From IMG/VR virus record IMGVR_UViG_3300025000_000055: a DNA stretch of 64,000 nt. One strand, 5' to 3'. This DNA comes from a virus. Lineage: Duplodnaviria; Caudoviricetes. Below are positions 32,215 through 43,900 of the stretch, in pieces (the first letter of the stretch is position 1; every line of letters begins with the position of its first letter). The translations under genes and the position numbers were made by a program. Below the pieces are notes generated by a model. It saw only the letters and a list, made by a program, of their open reading frames with translations, was not told where the DNA came from and made no database searches.

Positions 32215-32643
32215 TTAATGTAATATCACTATTGAACTATAGTCAATAAAGTTTACTTTAATTAAAAATTTAATATAATACTTTTTATTAATAAAACCTA
32301 CTTCTATTTCTTCTATTATAGAATTACCCCCTTTATCTTTTAATATATTATTGATTATTTCAATAGTTGGATATTCATTATATAATATATAATCTCGTAT
32401 TAATGTAATTGATCTATTTAATAAAATATTATTTACTATATTAGTTTCTTCACTAATTGGAAATAATATTTCTAAGCCTATTAAATAACCATCTGGTGTT
32501 TGTATTATTTTTATATCCTCTTCTTTTGTTTTTCCTAGATTGATAAAGAAATTTTTAATCAAATTACTCTTAATATTATATATAATATTATTATATAAAG
32601 AATTTATTAATAAATCATTGTTACTAGTATTTTTTATATTCAT
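32215..32643 (-). CDS. Hypothetical protein
   Basis: 142 aa ORF, SD GAGGAGG, tandem early motifs upstream. Confidence 0.75.
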   Translation of the reverse strand: MNIKNTSNNDLLINSLYNNIIYNIKSNLIKNFFINLGKTKEEDIKIIQTPDGYLIGLEILFPISEETNIVNNILLNRSITLIRDYILYNEYPTIEIINNILKDKGGNSIIEEIEVGFINKKYYIKFLIKVNFIDYSSIVILH

Positions 32644-32799
32644 ATTATCCTCCTCTTATTTTAAGTTATTTATATATTTTTATATAATATATTGTAACTT
32701 AATAAATAATATATAAATAAAATTTAGTATAAAGATATTATATCTTCTATTATGAAAATATAAGCTTTATACTAAATTTGAAATTATTTTTTTATATAA

Positions 32800-33305
32800 A
32801 AAAATAGTGTAGGTCCCTCTCCGATGGGATATTCTCAAGGGAGCAATAGGGTGCTTCGTTATATATTAGTATAATTATTCTTCATTTATGAGATTTTGGA
32901 GACAAACTAAATTTATAATTGTATTATTGTATGTTTGCATAAGAGTGTTTTTTTCATTTATATCTTTAATGTTATGCTTTATTTATATAACTTATTTATA
33001 TATAGTATATTTATTAATATTACTATTTAAAATTTATTTAAAATTAATGAACTTTATCTTCGTAATATTCTTACGTTTAATTCTTTGTTGTTAATTTTAA
33101 ATTAATCTTTTAGATTAATTGTTATTCTTTCCCTATTGCCCTTGAGCGATTTTCAATTATTACTTGTTCACACAAGTAATAATCTCAATCTTGGCCTACA
33201 ATTCACTCTCGTGAACGCCACCTTGATCCAAAATCGTCAATTTAAATTACGTAATGACATATCATTACAAATATAATTTATAATAACGATTTTGTGCACC
33301 CCTAT
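32800..33305 (-). ncRNA. Putative large structured non-coding RNA of unknown family
   Basis: GC-richer ends with long-range complementarity (33131-33146 vs 32834-32851; 33195-33200 vs 32808-32813; 33296-33302 vs 32848-32854), GAGA tetraloop, several hairpins, late motif upstream, terminator downstream. Confidence 0.6.
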
Positions 33306-33372
33306 ATTAAATCAAACATAAAGATGCATTTAATTATATGTTTATTTAAATTATTTTTTATTTGATAAAAAT

Positions 33373-34212
33373 TTAATAAAAAATAAAACCATTGTCATCA
33401 AATAATTTCATCATATTATTAATAAATTTTCTAGTCATTTTATCTTTTATTTCATAATTATTTTTAAAATATACAATGAAAATCATTGATAAATTTTTAC
33501 TATAATTATCTTGTAGTATTTCTCTAAAAGTTTTTCTCCTATTATTTTGAGATGTTTCATCCCAATTTTTTATTATTGAATATGAATATAAACCTAATTT
33601 TCTTTTACTTTTAGAAAAACCAGCTAAATGTCTAGAAAATATATAATTAGTATTAATATCACTATTCATTAATTTAAATTTATCAACTAGATTAATATAA
33701 CTATTTAAATAATAAGGTTTCTTTTTAATATTAACTATATTGAATGTAAAAAAGATTTCATTTAAATCTGATTGAGAAATAATTTTTTTATTTAAAATAA
33801 TACTATCTTCTATTATATATTTAGGATAGAAAAAACGTAAAACAGATAAGAAATTATCTAAAGATAAATCAATAATAGGTTCACCTATTTCTTTTGATTG
33901 TAAATTTATCTTAAATAATTTTTTATATTCATTGTCTTTAAATAAAGTAAAATAACGATTATTATTTAAATCCACATGACTAATCATATTATCATTTTTA
34001 TTTATTAAATATTTATCATTCATAAATAAATGAATAAATTCAATATCTCTTAATAAAGAATTAAATATAACATCTAAAGAAGGTAAACTATCTTTTAATG
34101 GCATTATAGTTATTTTATTATCTTTAATTGTATATCTCCACCATGTATAAGTTCTTCTAGTTAATCTTTTATAAGTAACAACTCTATCTAATATTGGATG
34201 TGTAAAATTCAT
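33373..34212 (-). CDS. Hypothetical protein
   Basis: 279 aa ORF with SD. Confidence 0.75.
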   Translation of the reverse strand: MNFTHPILDRVVTYKRLTRRTYTWWRYTIKDNKITIMPLKDSLPSLDVIFNSLLRDIEFIHLFMNDKYLINKNDNMISHVDLNNNRYFTLFKDNEYKKLFKINLQSKEIGEPIIDLSLDNFLSVLRFFYPKYIIEDSIILNKKIISQSDLNEIFFTFNIVNIKKKPYYLNSYINLVDKFKLMNSDINTNYIFSRHLAGFSKSKRKLGLYSYSIIKNWDETSQNNRRKTFREILQDNYSKNLSMIFIVYFKNNYEIKDKMTRKFINNMMKLFDDNGFIFY

Positions 34213-37915: not shown

Positions 37916-40900
37916 TTGATTTTTATTTCAGATATACCTCATCTTAAGACTTATAAACAAAAAGTTTTACTACCTAAAGATGAAAAATACCCTAGTATTA
38001 ATAGTGTTGTTTTTATCAATAATAATACTATAGAATCTTCTATAGAGTTATTAAAACATGAATTTATTAAAAATAGTAGTATGTATCATTTTTATTTTAT
38101 GGACCAAATTTATAGTGGTAAATTATTTAATAGAACATTTAGGATTTTATACCGTAAAGAAAGAACTGATATTTATACTAATATAGAAAAACAAGTTAGA
38201 TTTATACAAACAGTTACAGATTTACCATCAGTAAATAAAAAAAATATATATGTTGATTTAATAAAACATAATACTTTATTTTTTGAATTAAGTAAGAAAG
38301 TTAATTTTGGAGTTAGAATTAAAAATTATATAAGTTATTTAGATAACTTAATTAATAATAGTCATTTTAATCAATACAAATATAAAACAATTTGTATTGA
38401 TATTAATAGTTGGATTAACGACGTGGGAACCCAAATAAAAGGTAAATTAAATTTTGATAATCCTATATTTATTATTTATTACTGTATGTATAAATATTTT
38501 GATAAATTTATAGAATTAGGAAATATTAATATTATCTTTTATACTAATGATAGTGTATTAAGATTAAATCCATCATTATGTGATAAAAATTCATATTCAT
38601 TATTTAAGAAAGAGATTATGAAATCATCTCCTAAAAGTTTATTGGATATGGATGAAGAAAATATTGAAAAAATATTAAAAAGAAAAGAAATTGCAGATAA
38701 AATGATAGGATATCTTAATGACCAACATAGATTTATTGGTGATAATAAAACTGAACAAGATGATGAATTTGAAAATAGTATTGAAGAAAAAGTTGATGAA
38801 ATAATTGATGCTAATAAATTAGATGATTCTAATAGTGAAGAAATATATAATAAAGTTTCATCTACTATTATTAATGATAATGAAATTATAAAAAAAATTC
38901 ATATGTTGAATCAGGAGAAAAAAGTTGGTAGAAGTACAGCTTCTATTAAAAGGGATGAAGAATTAAGAAATAAGCAGAAAGAAATAATAGAAGATAAAAT
39001 GGGAATATATATAGATAATATATATGAAACTACTAATAAAGAACAACTCGATATTCCTAAATTTGATGTTTCTGATAAAGTTAATACTACTAATAAAAAT
39101 ATAACTACTATAAGATATCCTCATTTTGAAAAGGCATATAATGAAGTTCTTCATGAAAAAGATTTACTTAATAATATAAAGTTTTTAAATGAAAAATCTA
39201 TTCCAGTTTACATCAGGAACATAGAACACATTGATTCTTCTGATGAATTAAATTTAAAAGAAACATATACCTTTGAATTAGAAGATGAAAATAGAGTTAG
39301 ACATAAATTAAAATTCGATGTACCTAAATTTATAGATGATAAATTTCTATATTTAGGTGGAAATAAAAAGATTATTATGAAGCAATTATTTATGAAACCT
39401 GTTGTTAAAACAGGTCCTGACGAAGTACAAATTTGTACTAATTATAATAAGATGTTTATTAGACGTTATGGTACTAAAATATCATCTAAAATAGAAAAAA
39501 TGAGAAAATTATTATATGAACAAAAAGAAGGTATTAAAGTTAAATATGGTAATAATTTATCTAGTAATAATAAATATAATACTACTATAGAATATGATGA
39601 ATTATCTAAAAGCTTTACTTATATTCGTATAGGTAAAACTGAATTTTATTTTAATCAAGATGATGTTATTAATATGATTACAGATAAAAAAATAAAACTT
39701 AATGAAAATGAATTATTAATAGGTTTTCATGATAATGGTAAAACACCAATACCTATTATAGTTGATATAAATACTCAAAGAATCGGTACATCTTTTGATA
39801 TAGTTGGTTATATACTTTCTATGTTGACTCAAGGTTTAGTACAAGATTTTGATGATATTAAAAGTGGTAAAAAATTCGTATATACTAGAGCTTATATAAT
39901 GCAAAAACATGTCCCTGTAATTTTATTAATTTCATTTCTAGAAGGTTTATCTACAGTAATAAAGAAAGCTAATATAAAACATTACTTTTCAGATAAGAGA
40001 CCTAAAGACATAACTAGTAATGAGGGAATAATTCAATTTAGTGATGGGTACTTAATTTATGATAAGTATCCATTTGAAAACTCTTTATTAATGAATGCAT
40101 TTGCCGATATTCCTACTAAAACTTTTGAATATAGTGAATTTGATTCAAAAGATGTTTATTTATCTTTATTTGATACTCTTTATAATAGTAGAATAATTGG
40201 TAATGCTTTTCTTAATTCATATGAATTTTTAATTGATCCTATTACAAGAGAAGTGTTACAAGATTTAAATTATCCAACTGATTATGTTTCTTTAGTTCTA
40301 TATGCAAATTCATTATTGGCAACTAATTCGTATATTAAAGAGAATAATATGAATCTTTATAGAATAAGATCAAATGAATTAGTTAATGCTTTAATATATA
40401 AAGAAGTTGCTAACGCTTATATTAAATATAGAACTACTTCTTTAAATAATAATCCGGTTAAAATATCTGTACCTCAAGATATCATTATTAAAAAATTACT
40501 GGTTGCACAGACCGTGGAAGACTACAGCACATTAAATCCTATTGTTGAAGTTGAGAAATCAAGAGTTATTACACCAAAAGGTCATTCAGGTATGAACTTG
40601 GATGAAGCCTATACACAAGATAAAAGGTCATATGATAAAACAATGTTAGGTATTTTAGCAATGTCAACTTCACCAGATTCTTCATGTGGTGTAACCAGAC
40701 AATTAACCTTAGAACCCAATATAAAAAATCCAAGAGGGTATATTGATATAAATGATGATAGACTTGATAAATTAAAAGATGTGAATTTATTTTCTCCAGC
40801 TGAATTATTGTCTCCTTTAGGAAATACACGGGATGAGTTGCTATTGTCCCACTATATAGAAATATATAGTTAAAAACTCTTCTAATTGTCGGGGACATCC

Positions 40901-43900
40901 TTATTGCTCTTATTACCAAATTATATTAGTAATAATATAATGGCTTAATCTAATCAATTAAGGTATGGTAACAAGATAAGAGATTGGGTAATCCGCAGCC
41001 AAGTCTCATAGTATAAAAAAATAAAAAGAGTTAAAAATTATAACTCTTTTAAATTAATTTTAACAATATTCTTTACCTTTTATTACATGACAAAGATAGT
41101 TATGGATATCACGAAGTTCTCTTCTAATATATAATTTATGTATTTCTCCAGTACCATCATATAATTCATCATATAATAAGAAGGTTTCTTCGATATAATA
41201 TCTAAAAAGTTCTAAATTTTTACGAGTAACAAATTCATCTGTTGCTCTTTCTTCGTTATTGTTATATTGCTTTAAGTCATTGGTGAATCTTTGTTCAAAG
41301 AACTTTTTAGTTATTTCTATAGATTCTTTGGAGATACAATCTGGATCTAATTCTTTGATACCATTCATTAAAATATCTTTGTAGGTAACTGACATAAAAA
41401 TCATTCCTTTCTTTTTTATATTATATAAATAATATATAAATGAAAAATAAAATTATACTATGAGAAAGGTTCAAAGACTATCGAAAGCATGTTTATTATT
41501 TAATAAACAGAAGTGAGTAGAGTAGGGGAAACCCCAAACGGAGAGCATCTAAACACGTAATGGTGAAGATGATGATATAGTCTGTCACTTATGGAAATCA
41601 TAGGTGGTTTCTGGATAGCATAAGAACAGCGATGAGTGTAAAACAATCAAAACATATAGTTCCAGTAATAAAACAATCACCAGTTTTATTATCCAATGGA
41701 GTTGAACAAGTTATTCATTATCATTTGTCAGACGACTTTACAGTTGTAGCTAAAGATGATGGTGAAGTCGTTGAAATAAATAAAGAAACTGGTTTAGTTA
41801 TTATTAAATATAAAAATGGTGAAACGAAAGCAATTGATACAAGTCCAAGAGTAGTAAAAAATGGTAAACTAAATGCCCATTTATATGGTGACATATAAGT
41901 GAATCTTCTTTAATTGTCGGGGAAGCTCTTAGAGCCTAAAACTACTAAATTATTAGTAATAATGTTTTAGGATTGGGTGATCCGCAGCTAATAATTAATA
42001 TACGTTAACTATGATAAAACTATTAAAAGAAAGGAGGAAAAAATATGTTATATGTCTTTTGTGGTAATAAAGAGTTTTGGGTTGATTTAAATTATGATAT
42101 AATATTATCTATATATCAAATAAGTTTTTATGGTAATATTATTAATAAAGAAAATGGTAAAATATTAAAAGGTCATATTGATAAAAAAGGTTATGTTCAA
42201 GTTATGTTAAAAACAGTAGAAAAAAGAATTAAAAAATACAGAATACATGTTTTAGTAGCAAATACTTTTTTAAAATTTCAAAAAAGTGAAATTAATAATA
42301 CTGTAAATCATAAAAATGTAAAAAGTAAAAAAGATAAAATTAATAATAATGTTAATAATCTAAAGTGGGTTAGTAATGCAGCTAATAATAAACACGCAAA
42401 AGAAAATGGTTTAATTCATAAAGGTGAAGAATGTCATAATTCTATTTTCAGTAATAAAGAAATTCATAAAATATGTCAAATGCTTCAACACGAATATTCT
42501 TATTCTGAAATAATAAAAGAATTAAAATTAAACGATAATAAAAATATACGAGCTTCTTTATATAGAATAAGAAAAAGGATATCATGGGCACATATTAGTA
42601 AAAATTATTTTTGGAATGATTCTTATAGTTCGAATGGTAAAAGAAAATTAAAATCTTATAAAAAAATAAATGAAATGAAAGAATTAATATTAAGAAATTA
42701 TTCGTTTAATGATATATGTAGAATTTTATTAATTAGAAATAATTCTAATAATAGAGACATATATCGTAATATAAAAGATGGAAATGCGTATATTGATTAA
42801 AGTTCAACGACTATCCTTTAGCTTTGAAATAAGCAACAGGAGTAGGGCCTAAGTAGGTGGGTGAAAGTCCCTTAAATCGAAATAGGAAGTATCTTTATGA
42901 GATGAAGATATAGTCTAGTATCCTATAGAAATATAGGGAAGTTCATAAGAGAACTGCATAGATTAACGACCTATGTGAATTTTTACGGCCGGAGGTTTCT
43001 TTTTATCAAATAAGTTATCATGTGATTTGAAATTAGGGCAAAAAATAAAGAAAAAAGATATATTGGCTTATGATAGTAATTTTTTTAGTAATAATAAATT
43101 ATATGGTAATAGATTTAATATTGGTTCATTGCAGAAAATAGCCTGTATGTCCTCTTATTCAACATATGAAGATTCTACGTTTGTTAGTAAAAAATTAAGT
43201 GAAGATATGGCAACATATATTGTTATGGAAAAACCAGTTACTTTAGGTAAAAATGCTAATGTTGACTATATAGTTGAAATAGGTCAAAATGTTAGTGTTG
43301 GGGATGAGCTAATTAGATTTGAAATTTCATTTAAAGATGATTCATTAAATAAATTTCTTTCAAATGTTGGAGACGAGTTAAAAGAAGAGATTAAAGCAAT
43401 GGGTAAGACACCTATTAAAACTAAACACTCAGGTGTAATTGAAGATATTAAAGTATATTCAACTGTAGATATTGAAGAATTATCTCCTACATTAAAAAAG
43501 ATTGTTAACGATTATTATGACAGAATTAATAGGAAGAAAAAAGTTCTTAATAAATATGATAAAAGTGACTCTGTTTATAAATGTGGTATAATGGTAAATG
43601 AACCTGTTGGTAAGATTGAAAGTAAAGATGGTAAAGTTAAAGGTCATACTGTTAATTCAGGGGTTTTAATAATATTTTATATTAAATATAAAGATACAGT
43701 TGGTGTTGGAGATAAAATATGTTTCTTTACTGCATTAAAATCTATTTCCGGTGAAGTTATACCTGAGGGATATGAGCCATATTCTTTATTTAGACCGGAT
43801 GAAGAAGTATCTTCAGTAGTTGCCCCAGGAGCAGTAATGAATAGAATGACTCCATCTGTTATATTGTCAATGTTTGGTAATAAGGTATTAATAGAATTAA

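What the first reader, a model, noticed from the sequence alone, without database searches (positions are those of the whole stretch)
32800..33305. ~500-nt structured non-coding element with crossing long-range pairings
This is the largest gene-free gap in the window. On the minus strand it reads GGGGUGCAC, a long hairpin closed by CAAAAUCGU/ACGAUUUUG, UGGC-UUCAC-GAGA-GUGAA-GCCA, an 11-bp hairpin and CUCAAGGGCAAUAGGG. A ~270-nt A-rich stretch follows, then GCACCCUAUUGCUCCCUUGAG, a UCCC/GGGA hairpin and CCUACA. Three distant pairings (16 bp with a 2-nt bulge; UGUAGG/CCUACA; GGGGUGC/GCACCCU) cross or compete, which suggests a pseudoknotted core or a switch. It is bounded by a late motif (33331-33342) and a long terminator. 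I cannot match it to tRNA, tmRNA, RNase P, SRP, 6S, or group I/II introns.
Basis: partly seen in the sequence, partly recalled or inferred. Interest (0 to 1): 0.8.

Follow-up and report, generated by a model that had tools for sequence, protein, structure and literature searches.

The report
Orphan structured RNA of jumbo phage
An uncultured giant phage from groundwater carries a gene of about 620 bases that makes a folded RNA rather than a protein. Matching mutations in two sister phages preserve its hairpins, but it fits no known RNA family, and two of the three knot-like long-range pairings first proposed do not hold.

Summary
The 729-nt gene-free gap is real. It holds a discrete non-coding transcription unit on the minus strand. 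It starts at an AR9-type late promoter (33342-33331, start at 33331). Then come nine helices, ending in a 25-bp hairpin (32779-32720). A conserved early-promoter motif for the next gene follows.

Only three distinct versions exist in all collections searched: this phage, a 250-kb sister and a 6.8-kb contig. They keep every hairpin through compensatory and G-U-preserving changes. The GNRA loops stay GNRA in the sister. The conserved hairpins are far more stable on the minus strand, so this acts as RNA, not DNA. A G/C-rich 16-bp clamp loops out a fast-evolving AU-rich insert of 279-318 nt.

GGGGUGC pairs locally in a 5' hairpin. UGUAGG/CCUACA decays in the relatives. So a pseudoknot is not supported. 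One competing pairing for the clamp's 3' strand does show suggestive covariation.

There is no Rfam, tRNA or tmRNA match, no conserved ORF, no iterons and one copy per genome. Distant relatives of the upstream 279-aa basic protein also carry a late promoter plus a structured non-coding stretch behind that gene.

Function is unknown. The scan noted this same stretch once before (e1-5379638), not on other DNA.

The parts
33331..33342 (-). AR9-type late promoter AACATATAATTA. The predicted transcription start is the final A at 33331.
   Evidence: It matches the AR9 late consensus AACA-(6N)-TA/G, in which the last base is the start (PMC5312081). It is identical in the sister and present as AACATAATTGTA in the third sequence. 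No transcript data are available.
33296..33327 (-). H0: a 13-bp 5'-terminal hairpin, GCAUCUUUAUGUU / AAUAUAGGGGUGC.
   Evidence: It folds in all three sequences at -12.8, -12.0 and -11.0 kcal/mol, against 0 to -4 on the opposite strand. All 5 differences between this phage and the sister lie on one strand, and each preserves a pair (G-U to A-U, G-C to G-U). The third sequence has a re-written 16-bp stem.
33229..33294 (-). H1: a long AU-rich composite hairpin. Its tip loop is UAUG here, UUCG in the sister and GAGA in the third sequence.
   Evidence: Three both-sided compensatory pairs lie in the tip stem. The base stem is re-written in the third sequence (CCAAGUU.AGUUA / UAACGAACUUGG).
33221..33228 (-). 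Junction J1/2, GAUCAAGG. It is the start of the 5' strand of the candidate alternative pairing P_alt, which runs on into the base of H2 (33227-33217).
33192..33220 (-). H2: a closing stem UGGC/GCCA, an inner stem GUUCAC/GUGAA with a GAGA loop, and a 3' internal loop UUGUAG.
   Evidence: The loop is GAGA here, GCGA in the sister and AAA in the third sequence. The inner stem is re-written to GUCCC/GGGAC in the third sequence. The closing stem pairs 4/4, 3/4 and 3/4.
33148..33190 (-). H3: 13 bp plus a 4-bp outer stem, with a GUGA loop.
   Evidence: The sister has three adjacent both-sided compensatory pairs (A-U to G-C, C-G to U-A, U-A to C-G). Its loop changes from GUGA to GAGA, which is still GNRA.
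33131..33146 (-). Clamp helix Pb, 5' strand, CUCAAGGGCAAUAGGG.
   Evidence: It pairs with 32851-32834. The distal half pairs 8/8 in all three sequences with one A-U to G-C compensation. The proximal half pairs 8/8, 7/8 and 7/8. Duplex energy is about -25 kcal/mol in all three.
32852..33130 (-). A-rich variable insert (expansion loop) of 279 nt here, 317 nt in the sister and 318 nt in the third sequence. It includes a conserved hairpin Hi1 (33120-33100) and an invariant block GCAAACAUACA (32938-32928).
   Evidence: Identity to the sister is only 43-70% here, against 93-97% in the core. Gaps are not multiples of three and include a 49-nt hairpin insertion in the relatives. Hi1 has one compensatory pair. 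No ORF is conserved.
32834..32851 (-). Clamp helix Pb, 3' strand, CCCUAUUG-CU-CCCUUGAG with a 2-nt bulge. It is also the 3' strand of the candidate alternative pairing P_alt.
32814..32829 (-). H4: a weak 3-4 bp hairpin, UCCC-AUCGGAGA-GGGA. The loop core CCAUCGGA is conserved.
   Evidence: The loop sequence is invariant, but the stem is poorly supported at -5.1, -1.8 and -3.7 kcal/mol.
32785..32813 (-). Tail CCUACACUA (UACACUA invariant), followed by the AU hairpin H5.
   Evidence: H5 arms are U7/A7 here and U5/A5 in both relatives, so the arm lengths change together.
32720..32779 (-). T: a 25-bp AU-rich hairpin followed by UAUUUAU. It is the presumed terminator of both the RNA and the upstream operon.
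   Evidence: It is conserved with three compensatory pairs, at -21.5, -34.1 and -21.9 kcal/mol. The consensus scan did not flag it because it has too few G-C pairs. Its function as a terminator is inferred.
32706..32717 (-). Early-promoter-like motif TTTATATATTAT for the downstream 142-aa gene. This is the boundary of the RNA unit.
   Evidence: It resembles the AR9 early consensus AAATATATATTAT-(6N)-G (PMC5312081). The core TATATATTAT occurs upstream of several other gene starts in the window (for example at 41438, 36950, 26149, 21856 and 5838). It is invariant in all three sequences.
33373..34212 (-). Upstream 279-aa basic protein of unknown fold. It is the only neighbour that stays linked to a structured non-coding stretch in distant relatives.
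   Evidence: There is no Pfam or PHROG hit. The AlphaFold2 model has pLDDT 79 and no informative fold match.

Best explanation
This is a stand-alone, late-expressed, structured non-coding RNA gene of a new family. It belongs to an uncultured AR9/PBS1-like jumbo phage. SHOWN: it has a conserved multi-hairpin architecture that works at the RNA level on the minus strand. The order is a 5' hairpin H0, a long hairpin H1, two tetraloop hairpins H2 and H3, and a G/C-rich 16-bp clamp that loops out a fast-evolving AU-rich expansion of 279-318 nt. A weak hairpin H4 with a conserved CCAUCGGA loop follows, then an AU hairpin H5 and a long terminal hairpin T. INFERRED: the phage non-virion RNA polymerase starts at 33331 and stops at T, giving an RNA of about 620 nt. 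The same sequence also forms the 3' UTR of the upstream early operon. The terminal hairpins at both ends would make the RNA stable. MOST LIKELY MECHANISM (inference, about 30-35% on its own): the conserved scaffold and its invariant unpaired blocks act in trans as a protein-binding scaffold or decoy late in infection. These blocks are UUGAAAAUCGCUCAAGGG, the CCAUCGGA loop and UACACUA. The basic 279-aa protein encoded just upstream is the most plausible partner, because it is the only gene that stays linked to such a non-coding stretch in distant relatives. The AU-rich insert is a tolerated expansion segment rather than the active part. The confidence given (0.55) blends about 0.8 for 'a real structured RNA gene of a new family' with about 0.3 for the scaffold or decoy mechanism.
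For: Transcription unit. The AACA-N6-TA motif is conserved in all three sequences and matches the experimentally defined AR9 late promoter (PMC5312081). The downstream gene has its own conserved early-type motif, which also precedes several other genes in the window. Structure. z = -6.6. Fifteen predicted pairs have both-sided compensatory changes among three sequences. All named hairpins refold in each sequence. H3 has three compensatory pairs. In the sister, GNRA loops stay GNRA while their letters change (GAGA to GCGA, GUGA to GAGA). In the third sequence the H2 loop becomes an AAA triloop. RNA rather than DNA. The summed energy of the conserved hairpins is -272 kcal/mol on the minus strand against -191 on the opposite strand. 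H0 exists only on the minus strand. Selection. The core is 93-97% identical to the sister against 43-70% in the insert. Non-coding. No ORF is shared, and the indels are not multiples of three. Uniqueness. There is one copy per genome. No Rfam hit appears at gathering score or at E<=10, and no tRNA or tmRNA. Link to the upstream gene. Homologues at 27-32% identity in other large phage contigs are also followed by AACA-N6-TA plus a strongly structured non-coding stretch (z = -8.9 and -6.3). The downstream genes in those contigs are unrelated. The protein is basic, with pI 9.4-9.7 in five of seven members.
Against: No transcript data exist, so the start, the end and even expression are inferred from motifs. 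Only three distinct sequences exist, all from one type of groundwater sample, so covariation statistics are thin. The function is unsupported by any direct evidence. The 279-aa protein has no recognisable RNA-binding fold. The non-coding stretches in distant relatives are not detectably homologous to this RNA (covariance model R1). The one exception is a GUUCAC-GAA-GUGAAC hairpin in L030. In two distant relatives the terminal hairpin is followed directly by a ribosome-binding site. That arrangement fits a 5' leader better than a free RNA.
Confidence: 0.55

Rival explanations
1. It is a cis-acting untranslated region rather than a free RNA. In one version it is a long structured 5' leader from the late promoter. 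Its terminal hairpin is then a regulated terminator (attenuation or antitermination) for the downstream genes. In another version it is a 3' UTR stability element for the upstream 279-aa gene.
For: The order is promoter, structured leader, big hairpin with U-rich tail, ribosome-binding site, gene. In L030 and L034 the hairpin is followed within about 20 nt by a Shine-Dalgarno sequence with no room for a promoter. Competing pairings exist for the clamp's 3' strand. [quoted passage not shown]
Against: In this clade a conserved early-promoter motif sits between the hairpin and the next gene, so that gene does not need read-through. The candidate switch region is about 50 nt and two hairpins away from T, and no antiterminator overlapping T was found. 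The downstream genes are not conserved among relatives, whereas the upstream gene is. An element of 620 nt with a 280-nt expansion is far larger than known attenuators.
Confidence: 0.22
2. It is a two-state RNA or ribozyme-like core, in the spirit of the first reader's idea. The 3' strand GC(UC/CC/CA)CCUUGA(G/U) alternates between the proximal half of the clamp and the segment AUCAAGG(U/G)GGC upstream of H2. This re-wires the junction that holds H2, H3 and the insert.
For: The alternative helix pairs 9/11 here and 11/11 in the sister. In the third sequence the real contiguous helix is 7 bp, AGGUGGC/GCCACCU. One position covaries as U.C, G-C, U-A and another as G.U, G-C, G-C. All three substitutions that separate the sister from this phage in these strands improve the helix. 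Shuffle tests give 263/2000, 6/2000 and 41/2000. In the sister it is the minimum-energy state by 6.4 kcal/mol.
Against: In this phage and in the third sequence the full clamp is favoured by 9 and 3 kcal/mol. The three sequences are related, so the tests are not independent. AU- and G-rich short repeats give many chance complementarities. No known self-cleaving or self-splicing family matches.
Confidence: 0.12
3. It is a DNA-level element: a replication origin, a packaging site or a recombination hotspot. The AT-rich stretch would be an unwinding region flanked by palindromes.
For: It has a 280-nt very AT-rich stretch flanked by inverted repeats, and it is the largest non-coding gap in the window.
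Against: There are no direct repeats or iterons beyond one chance AT-rich pair. The GC-skew turn of the window lies near 37-38 kb, not here. The conserved hairpins depend on G-U pairs and are 80 kcal/mol weaker in sum on the other strand. GNRA and UUCG loops are preserved as such. A late promoter and a terminal hairpin frame the element.
Confidence: 0.05
4. It is a decayed remnant of a mobile RNA element, such as a group I intron that lost its exons and its endonuclease ORF. Nearby group I introns carry ORFs in a loop in the same way.
For: The genome is riddled with group I introns (earlier notes e1-5379655 and e1-5379637; the intron at 40835-41613 was seen). It has GNRA-capped hairpins plus a helix that encloses a long insert. 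Rfam misses this genome's accepted introns too.
Against: No flanking exons can be joined: a stop codon, a promoter, a terminator and a ribosome-binding site lie at the borders. The two halves of the clamp abut without a P3' strand. Only 2 nt stand where J8/7 would be. No P7-like AGACUAU/AUAGUCU pair like that of the local intron is present. There is no sequence similarity to any other part of the genome. The core is under strong purifying selection, which is unlike a decaying remnant.
Confidence: 0.05

Closest known systems
Large orphan structured RNAs found in phages and prophages (GOLLD, ROOL; Rfam families)
   Same: It is a structured non-coding RNA of about 0.6 kb on a phage genome. It has many hairpins, GNRA loops and no known function.
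   Different: Neither family's covariance model matches, even at E<=10. The known range is three near-relatives rather than a wide distribution. It is driven by a jumbo-phage late promoter. It carries a large hypervariable AU-rich expansion held by a clamp helix.
phi29 packaging RNA (pRNA)
   Same: It is a phage-encoded, separately transcribed, structured RNA that would work as a scaffold bound to a phage protein. This comparison rests on my own knowledge of pRNA, not on a test here.
   Different: pRNA is about 174 nt, is made early, and relies on intermolecular loop-loop pairing on the portal. No such complementary loops were found here, and there is no sequence or model match.
3' UTR-embedded small RNAs with their own internal promoter (bacterial type, such as DapZ or MicL)
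   Same: The promoter lies just after the stop codon of the upstream gene, and the terminator is shared with that gene's operon.
   Different: The element is 5-10 times longer and has no evident seed. No antisense target for its conserved blocks was found in the phage genome.
Group I introns of AR9-like jumbo phages with cargo in a loop
   Same: It has GNRA-capped helices and a helix that encloses a long, fast-evolving insert. It lies in the same genome.
   Different: It lacks exons, a P3/P7 pseudoknot, J8/7 and a G-binding helix, and it is not similar to the local introns.
rRNA-type processing stems (long-range helices flanking a long RNA, cut by RNase III)
   Same: A 16-bp bulged helix is formed by sequences about 280 nt apart.
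   Different: Here the enclosed RNA is the least conserved part and the flanks are the most conserved. Cleavage has not been tested.

Membership tests
Any Rfam 15 family (4227 models, including tmRNA, RNase P, SRP, 6S, GOLLD, ROOL, OLE, HEARO, riboswitches, T-box and self-cleaving ribozymes) | A score at or above the family's gathering threshold with its covariance model | tested here: not met
   The whole window gave 0 hits at gathering score. Positions 32600-33500 at E<=10 gave only two chance hits, SdsR at 18 bits against 38 and a miRNA.
tRNA / tmRNA | A tRNA-like acceptor and T-arm, plus a tag reading frame for tmRNA | tested here: not met
   ARAGORN found 0 genes in the window. The GGGG 5' motif pairs locally in H0 and is not conserved.
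Group I intron | A match to a group I covariance model | tested here: inconclusive
   There was no hit. But Rfam also fails on this window's accepted introns at E<=1, so its silence carries little weight.
Group I intron | A P3-P7 pseudoknot in the order P7-P3'-P8-J8/7-P7', with exons that can be joined into a gene | tested here: not met
   The two halves of the clamp abut with no P3' strand. Only 2 nt stand where J8/7 would be. The borders carry a stop codon, a promoter, a terminator and a ribosome-binding site. The crossing pairings fail in relatives.
Riboswitch or attenuator leader | Mutually exclusive terminator and antiterminator helices that share a strand with the terminator | tested here: not met
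   Competing helices exist, but they are about 50 nt upstream of T. No conserved pairing that overlaps the T stem was found.
Riboswitch or attenuator leader | The downstream gene depends on read-through, with no promoter of its own | tested here: not met
   A conserved early-promoter motif lies between T and the 142-aa gene. The feature is met in the distant loci L030 and L034.
Replication origin | Iterons or initiator boxes next to an AT-rich unwinding element, with strand-symmetric conservation | tested here: not met
   There are no iterons, and hairpin stability is strongly strand-asymmetric.
AR9-type late transcription unit | An AACA-(6N)-TA/G promoter element with the start at the last base | tested here: met
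   AACATATAATTA at 33342-33331 is conserved in all three sequences. The consensus comes from PMC5312081. Actual initiation was not tested.
phi29-type pRNA | Intermolecular complementary loops and binding to the portal and packaging ATPase | not testable with these tools
   No Rfam pRNA hit. Oligomerisation and binding need experiments.

The most novel reading that the evidence does not exclude
The RNA and the basic 279-aa protein encoded just upstream form a new phage ribonucleoprotein module. The module persists across very divergent AR9-like jumbo phages while the RNA sequence is almost completely replaced. The RNA toggles between two junction states (full clamp versus P_alt) to control what it binds late in infection.
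Probability: 0.12. Interest if true: 0.8.

Novelty: new variant of a known kind. Interest (0 to 1): 0.5.

Why it matters
Few structured non-coding RNAs are known from jumbo phages, and to my knowledge none from the AR9/PBS1 lineage. This one has a defined promoter type, clear boundaries and real, if sparse, covariation. It also shows an unusual design, in which a highly conserved scaffold clamps a hypervariable AU-rich expansion. It therefore gives a concrete, testable candidate for RNA-based functions late in jumbo-phage infection, such as a scaffold, a decoy or an RNP. It also adds a positional rule that can be used to find more such RNAs: a late promoter plus a structured RNA directly behind one conserved gene. 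Its narrow distribution and unknown function limit its present weight.

Tried and rejected
1. Rfam searches at gathering score and at E<=10, and ARAGORN, found nothing.
2. blastn against 50,697 phage records found only a 147-nt AT-rich chance match.
3. Exact-pattern scans gave only the sister phage plus GC-rich or coding chance hits. These covered viral contigs, metagenome contigs and prokaryote genomes. The chance hits were L004-L007, L018, L021 and L042-L044. L042 lies inside a 378-aa ORF.
4. The search for related loci with the two flanking proteins found nothing. The sister came in through RNA polymerase beta. The third sequence came in through the protein database.
5. Extra contigs carrying the flanking proteins all held RNAs identical to one of the three versions.
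6. Covariance model R1 of the core (103 positions) found one copy per genome and no match in the distant loci.
7. The 279-aa protein has no Pfam or PHROG hit. Foldseek against the PDB gave E >= 0.018. VIA-align gave Z <= 3.5. The AlphaFold DB clusters and the ESM Atlas gave nothing informative. tblastn found no homologue in cultured phages.
8. Antisense targets for the conserved unpaired blocks were sought in the phage genome, and none was found.
9. Coding capacity of the insert was checked, and no ORF is shared on either strand.
10. The palindromic core of the 49-nt hairpin inserted in the relatives was checked as a possible repeated mobile element. It is not repeated in the sister genome, apart from one 1-mismatch match, and is absent from this genome.
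11. A 5'/3' closing helix proposed by RNAalifold (leader with the U-rich tail) was set aside. The same 5' bases form the better-supported local hairpin H0.
12. A closing pairing AGGU/ACCU is not kept in the sister (my reading).

Full report
CONTEXT. The window is the minus strand of positions 84891-148890 of a 187-kb IMG/VR virus record with 24.8% G+C. Its proteins include split multisubunit RNA polymerase subunits and jumbo-phage virion proteins. The closest cultured relatives by RNA polymerase beta are Listeria phage LPJP1, the Staphylococcus MarsHill group and Bacillus PBS1/AR9-like phages, at about 33% identity. Earlier notes of this scan call it an AR9-like groundwater phage full of group I introns.

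THE OBSERVATION. The gap between the 279-aa ORF (33373-34212, minus) and the 142-aa ORF (32215-32643, minus) is 729 nt. It is the largest gap between ORFs of at least 90 aa in the window. The stretch folds far better than shuffles do (z = -6.6). The opposite strand does so too (z = -7.4), so energy alone says nothing about strand or function.

RELATIVES. Scans with exact patterns and with the flanking proteins at first found only chance hits. RNA polymerase beta led to a 250-kb sister phage with 87% protein identity. That phage has the element at the same place, with 74% identity over 700 nt. A database search with the 279-aa protein found a third version on a 6.8-kb contig, with 76% protein identity. 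All other contigs that carry the flanking proteins hold an RNA identical to one of these three. The gene order 279-aa gene, element, 142/143-aa gene is the same in all three.

BOUNDARIES. The sequence AACATATAATTA at 33342-33331 fits the experimentally defined AR9 late promoter AACA-(6N)-TA/G, in which the last base is the start (PMC5312081). It is conserved in all three sequences. At the 3' end a 25-bp AU-rich hairpin (32779-32720) with a U-rich tail is conserved and carries three compensatory pairs. The consensus terminator scan did not flag it because it has few G-C pairs. Directly after it lies TTTATATATTAT, which resembles the AR9 early consensus. Its core TATATATTAT stands upstream of several other gene starts in this window. 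So in this clade the element is a separate late unit inside an early gene cluster, and it also lies in the 3' UTR of the upstream operon. All of this is inferred from motifs, because no transcript data exist.

STRUCTURE. The three sequences share the following helices.
- H0 is a 13-16 bp hairpin that begins 4 nt after the predicted start.
- H1 is a long composite hairpin whose tip loop is UAUG, UUCG or GAGA.
- H2 has an inner stem GUUCAC/GUGAA with a GAGA loop here and GCGA in the sister. The third sequence re-writes it to GUCCC-AAA-GGGAC.
- H3 is 13 bp, with three adjacent both-sided compensations in the sister. Its loop changes from GUGA to GAGA.
- The clamp has a distal half that pairs 8/8 in all three with one A-U to G-C compensation. 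The proximal half pairs 8/8, 7/8 and 7/8.
- Hi1 is a hairpin at the start of the insert with one compensation.
- H4 is weak, with an invariant CCAUCGGA loop core.
- H5 is an AU hairpin whose two arms change length together.
- T is the terminal hairpin.

RNAalifold counts 15 pairs with both-sided changes. On the opposite strand these positions would be A-C mismatches. Summed over the conserved hairpins and the three sequences, the minus strand gives -272 kcal/mol and the opposite strand -191 kcal/mol. H0 is 0 to -4 kcal/mol on the opposite strand. This is the main argument that the element acts as RNA of minus polarity.

CONSERVATION PROFILE. Against the sister, the H1-base-to-H2 core is 93-97% identical, the 3' domain is 83-87%, and the insert is 43-70% with many short indels. 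The sister and the third sequence carry an extra 49-nt hairpin in the insert. No ORF is shared on either strand. The insert is therefore a tolerated expansion and the scaffold is the selected part. An invariant GCAAACAUACA sits within the insert.

GGGGUGC/GCACCCU pairs 7/7, 5/7 and 2/7, and the 5' strand belongs to H0. UGUAGG/CCUACA pairs 6/6, 5/6 and 4/6, with an uncompensated central mismatch in the third sequence. Only the 16-bp clamp holds. A pseudoknot is therefore not supported.

A COMPETING PAIRING. A screen for conserved complementarity and direct inspection found a different competitor. AUCAAGG(U/G)GGC, which spans the junction before H2 and the 5' side of the H2 closing stem, can pair with GC(UC/CC/CA)CCUUGA(G/U), the bulge and proximal 3' strand of the clamp. 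It pairs 9/11 here and 11/11 in the sister. In the third sequence it is a contiguous 7 bp, AGGUGGC/GCCACCU. One position reads U.C, G-C, U-A across the three. Shuffle tests give 263/2000, 6/2000 and 41/2000. It is the minimum-energy state only in the sister. The full clamp wins by 9 and 3 kcal/mol in the other two. I treat this as a lead for a two-state junction, not as a finding.

WHAT IT IS NOT.
- There is no Rfam family and no tRNA or tmRNA.
- Rfam also misses this window's accepted group I introns, so I compared by eye with the intron at 40835-41613. The element lacks joinable exons, a P3' strand, a J8/7 and a P7-like pair. It shares no sequence with the rest of the genome.
- There are no iterons.
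- The GC-skew turn is at about 37-38 kb, not here.

DISTANT RELATIVES. A profile search found homologues of the 279-aa protein at 27-32% identity in other large phage contigs. In L030 and L034 the gene is again followed by AACA-N6-TA. A G/C-rich long-range helix follows that clamps an AU-rich hairpin. Then come a short hairpin with a GAA loop, a purine-rich tract and a perfect terminal hairpin. L032 has a similar layout behind a less exact promoter motif. These stretches are strongly structured (z = -8.9 and -6.3). Model R1 does not detect them. The downstream genes are unrelated to those here. L030 carries GUUCAC-GAA-GUGAAC in a G/C-closed stem with a 3' internal loop, which is almost the H2 of this phage. 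So a non-coding structured unit seems tied to the upstream gene, while its sequence turns over. The protein is basic and has no informative family or fold match.

MECHANISM. Shown: a conserved, strand-specific RNA structure under selection, framed by conserved promoter-like and terminator-like signals. Inferred: late transcription, stability given by hairpins at both ends, and action in trans as a scaffold or decoy, possibly with the 279-aa protein. The main rival is a cis-acting leader or UTR, which fits the distant loci better than it fits this clade. I put about 0.8 on 'a real structured RNA gene of a new family' and about 0.3 on the scaffold or decoy mechanism.

VERDICT. This is a genuine, previously uncatalogued structured RNA with a narrow known range and unknown function. 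Its pseudoknot interpretation is mostly wrong.

Noticed in passing
window 32706-32717 (minus); also 41438, 36950, 26149, 21856, 5838 (minus) and 62556 (plus): The core TATATATTAT, usually within TTTATATATTAT, recurs upstream of gene starts. It resembles the AR9 early-promoter consensus AAATATATATTAT-(6N)-G, so it is probably this phage's early (virion RNA polymerase) promoter.
   Followed up: partly
L030:3830-4200, L032:3860-4400, L034:3825-4095: Distant homologues of the 279-aa gene are each followed by a structured non-coding stretch. In L030 and L034 it starts with an AACA-N6-TA motif, and L032 has a less exact one. Each has a G/C clamp around an AU-rich hairpin, a purine-rich tract and a perfect terminal hairpin. 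These are positional analogues that are not detectably homologous, apart from a GUUCAC-GAA-GUGAAC hairpin in L030.
   Followed up: partly
L009 (sister) and L022 (third), inside the insert; alignment A4 columns about 458-506: A 49-nt insertion forms the hairpin UUGGGCAUAUCAAUUGAUAUGCCCAA. It resembles the terminal hairpin of the L030 unit (UUGGUGAUCAAUUGAUCACCAA). Its palindromic core is not repeated in the sister genome, apart from one 1-mismatch match.
   Followed up: partly
window 40700-43200: Rfam 15 gives no hit, even at E<=1, on the stretch that earlier notes identify as group I introns of the RNA polymerase beta gene. Rfam silence is therefore uninformative for this intron family.
   Followed up: partly
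window 33373-34212 (minus): The 279-aa protein defines a small family of basic proteins confined to large uncultured phage contigs. It has a conserved N-terminal LDR(V/I)V..(R)LTR..Y.WW.Y motif and a confident AlphaFold2 model (pLDDT 79), but no informative fold match.
   Followed up: partly
window 33217-33232 and 32834-32846 (minus): The junction reads UUGGAUCA followed by the Shine-Dalgarno-like AAGGUGG. Its candidate partner strand (CUCCCUU, CCCCCUU or CCACCUU) looks like an anti-Shine-Dalgarno sequence. From memory, UUGGAUCA also precedes the anti-SD at the 3' end of 16S rRNA. In the third sequence, CCACCUU is exactly complementary to the AAGGUGG ribosome-binding site of the downstream gene. 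This may be coincidence.
   Followed up: no
L032:1-613: A Thg1-family gene (tRNA-His guanylyltransferase-like, PF04446) lies about 2.4 kb upstream of the 279-aa homologue in one distant phage contig.
   Followed up: no
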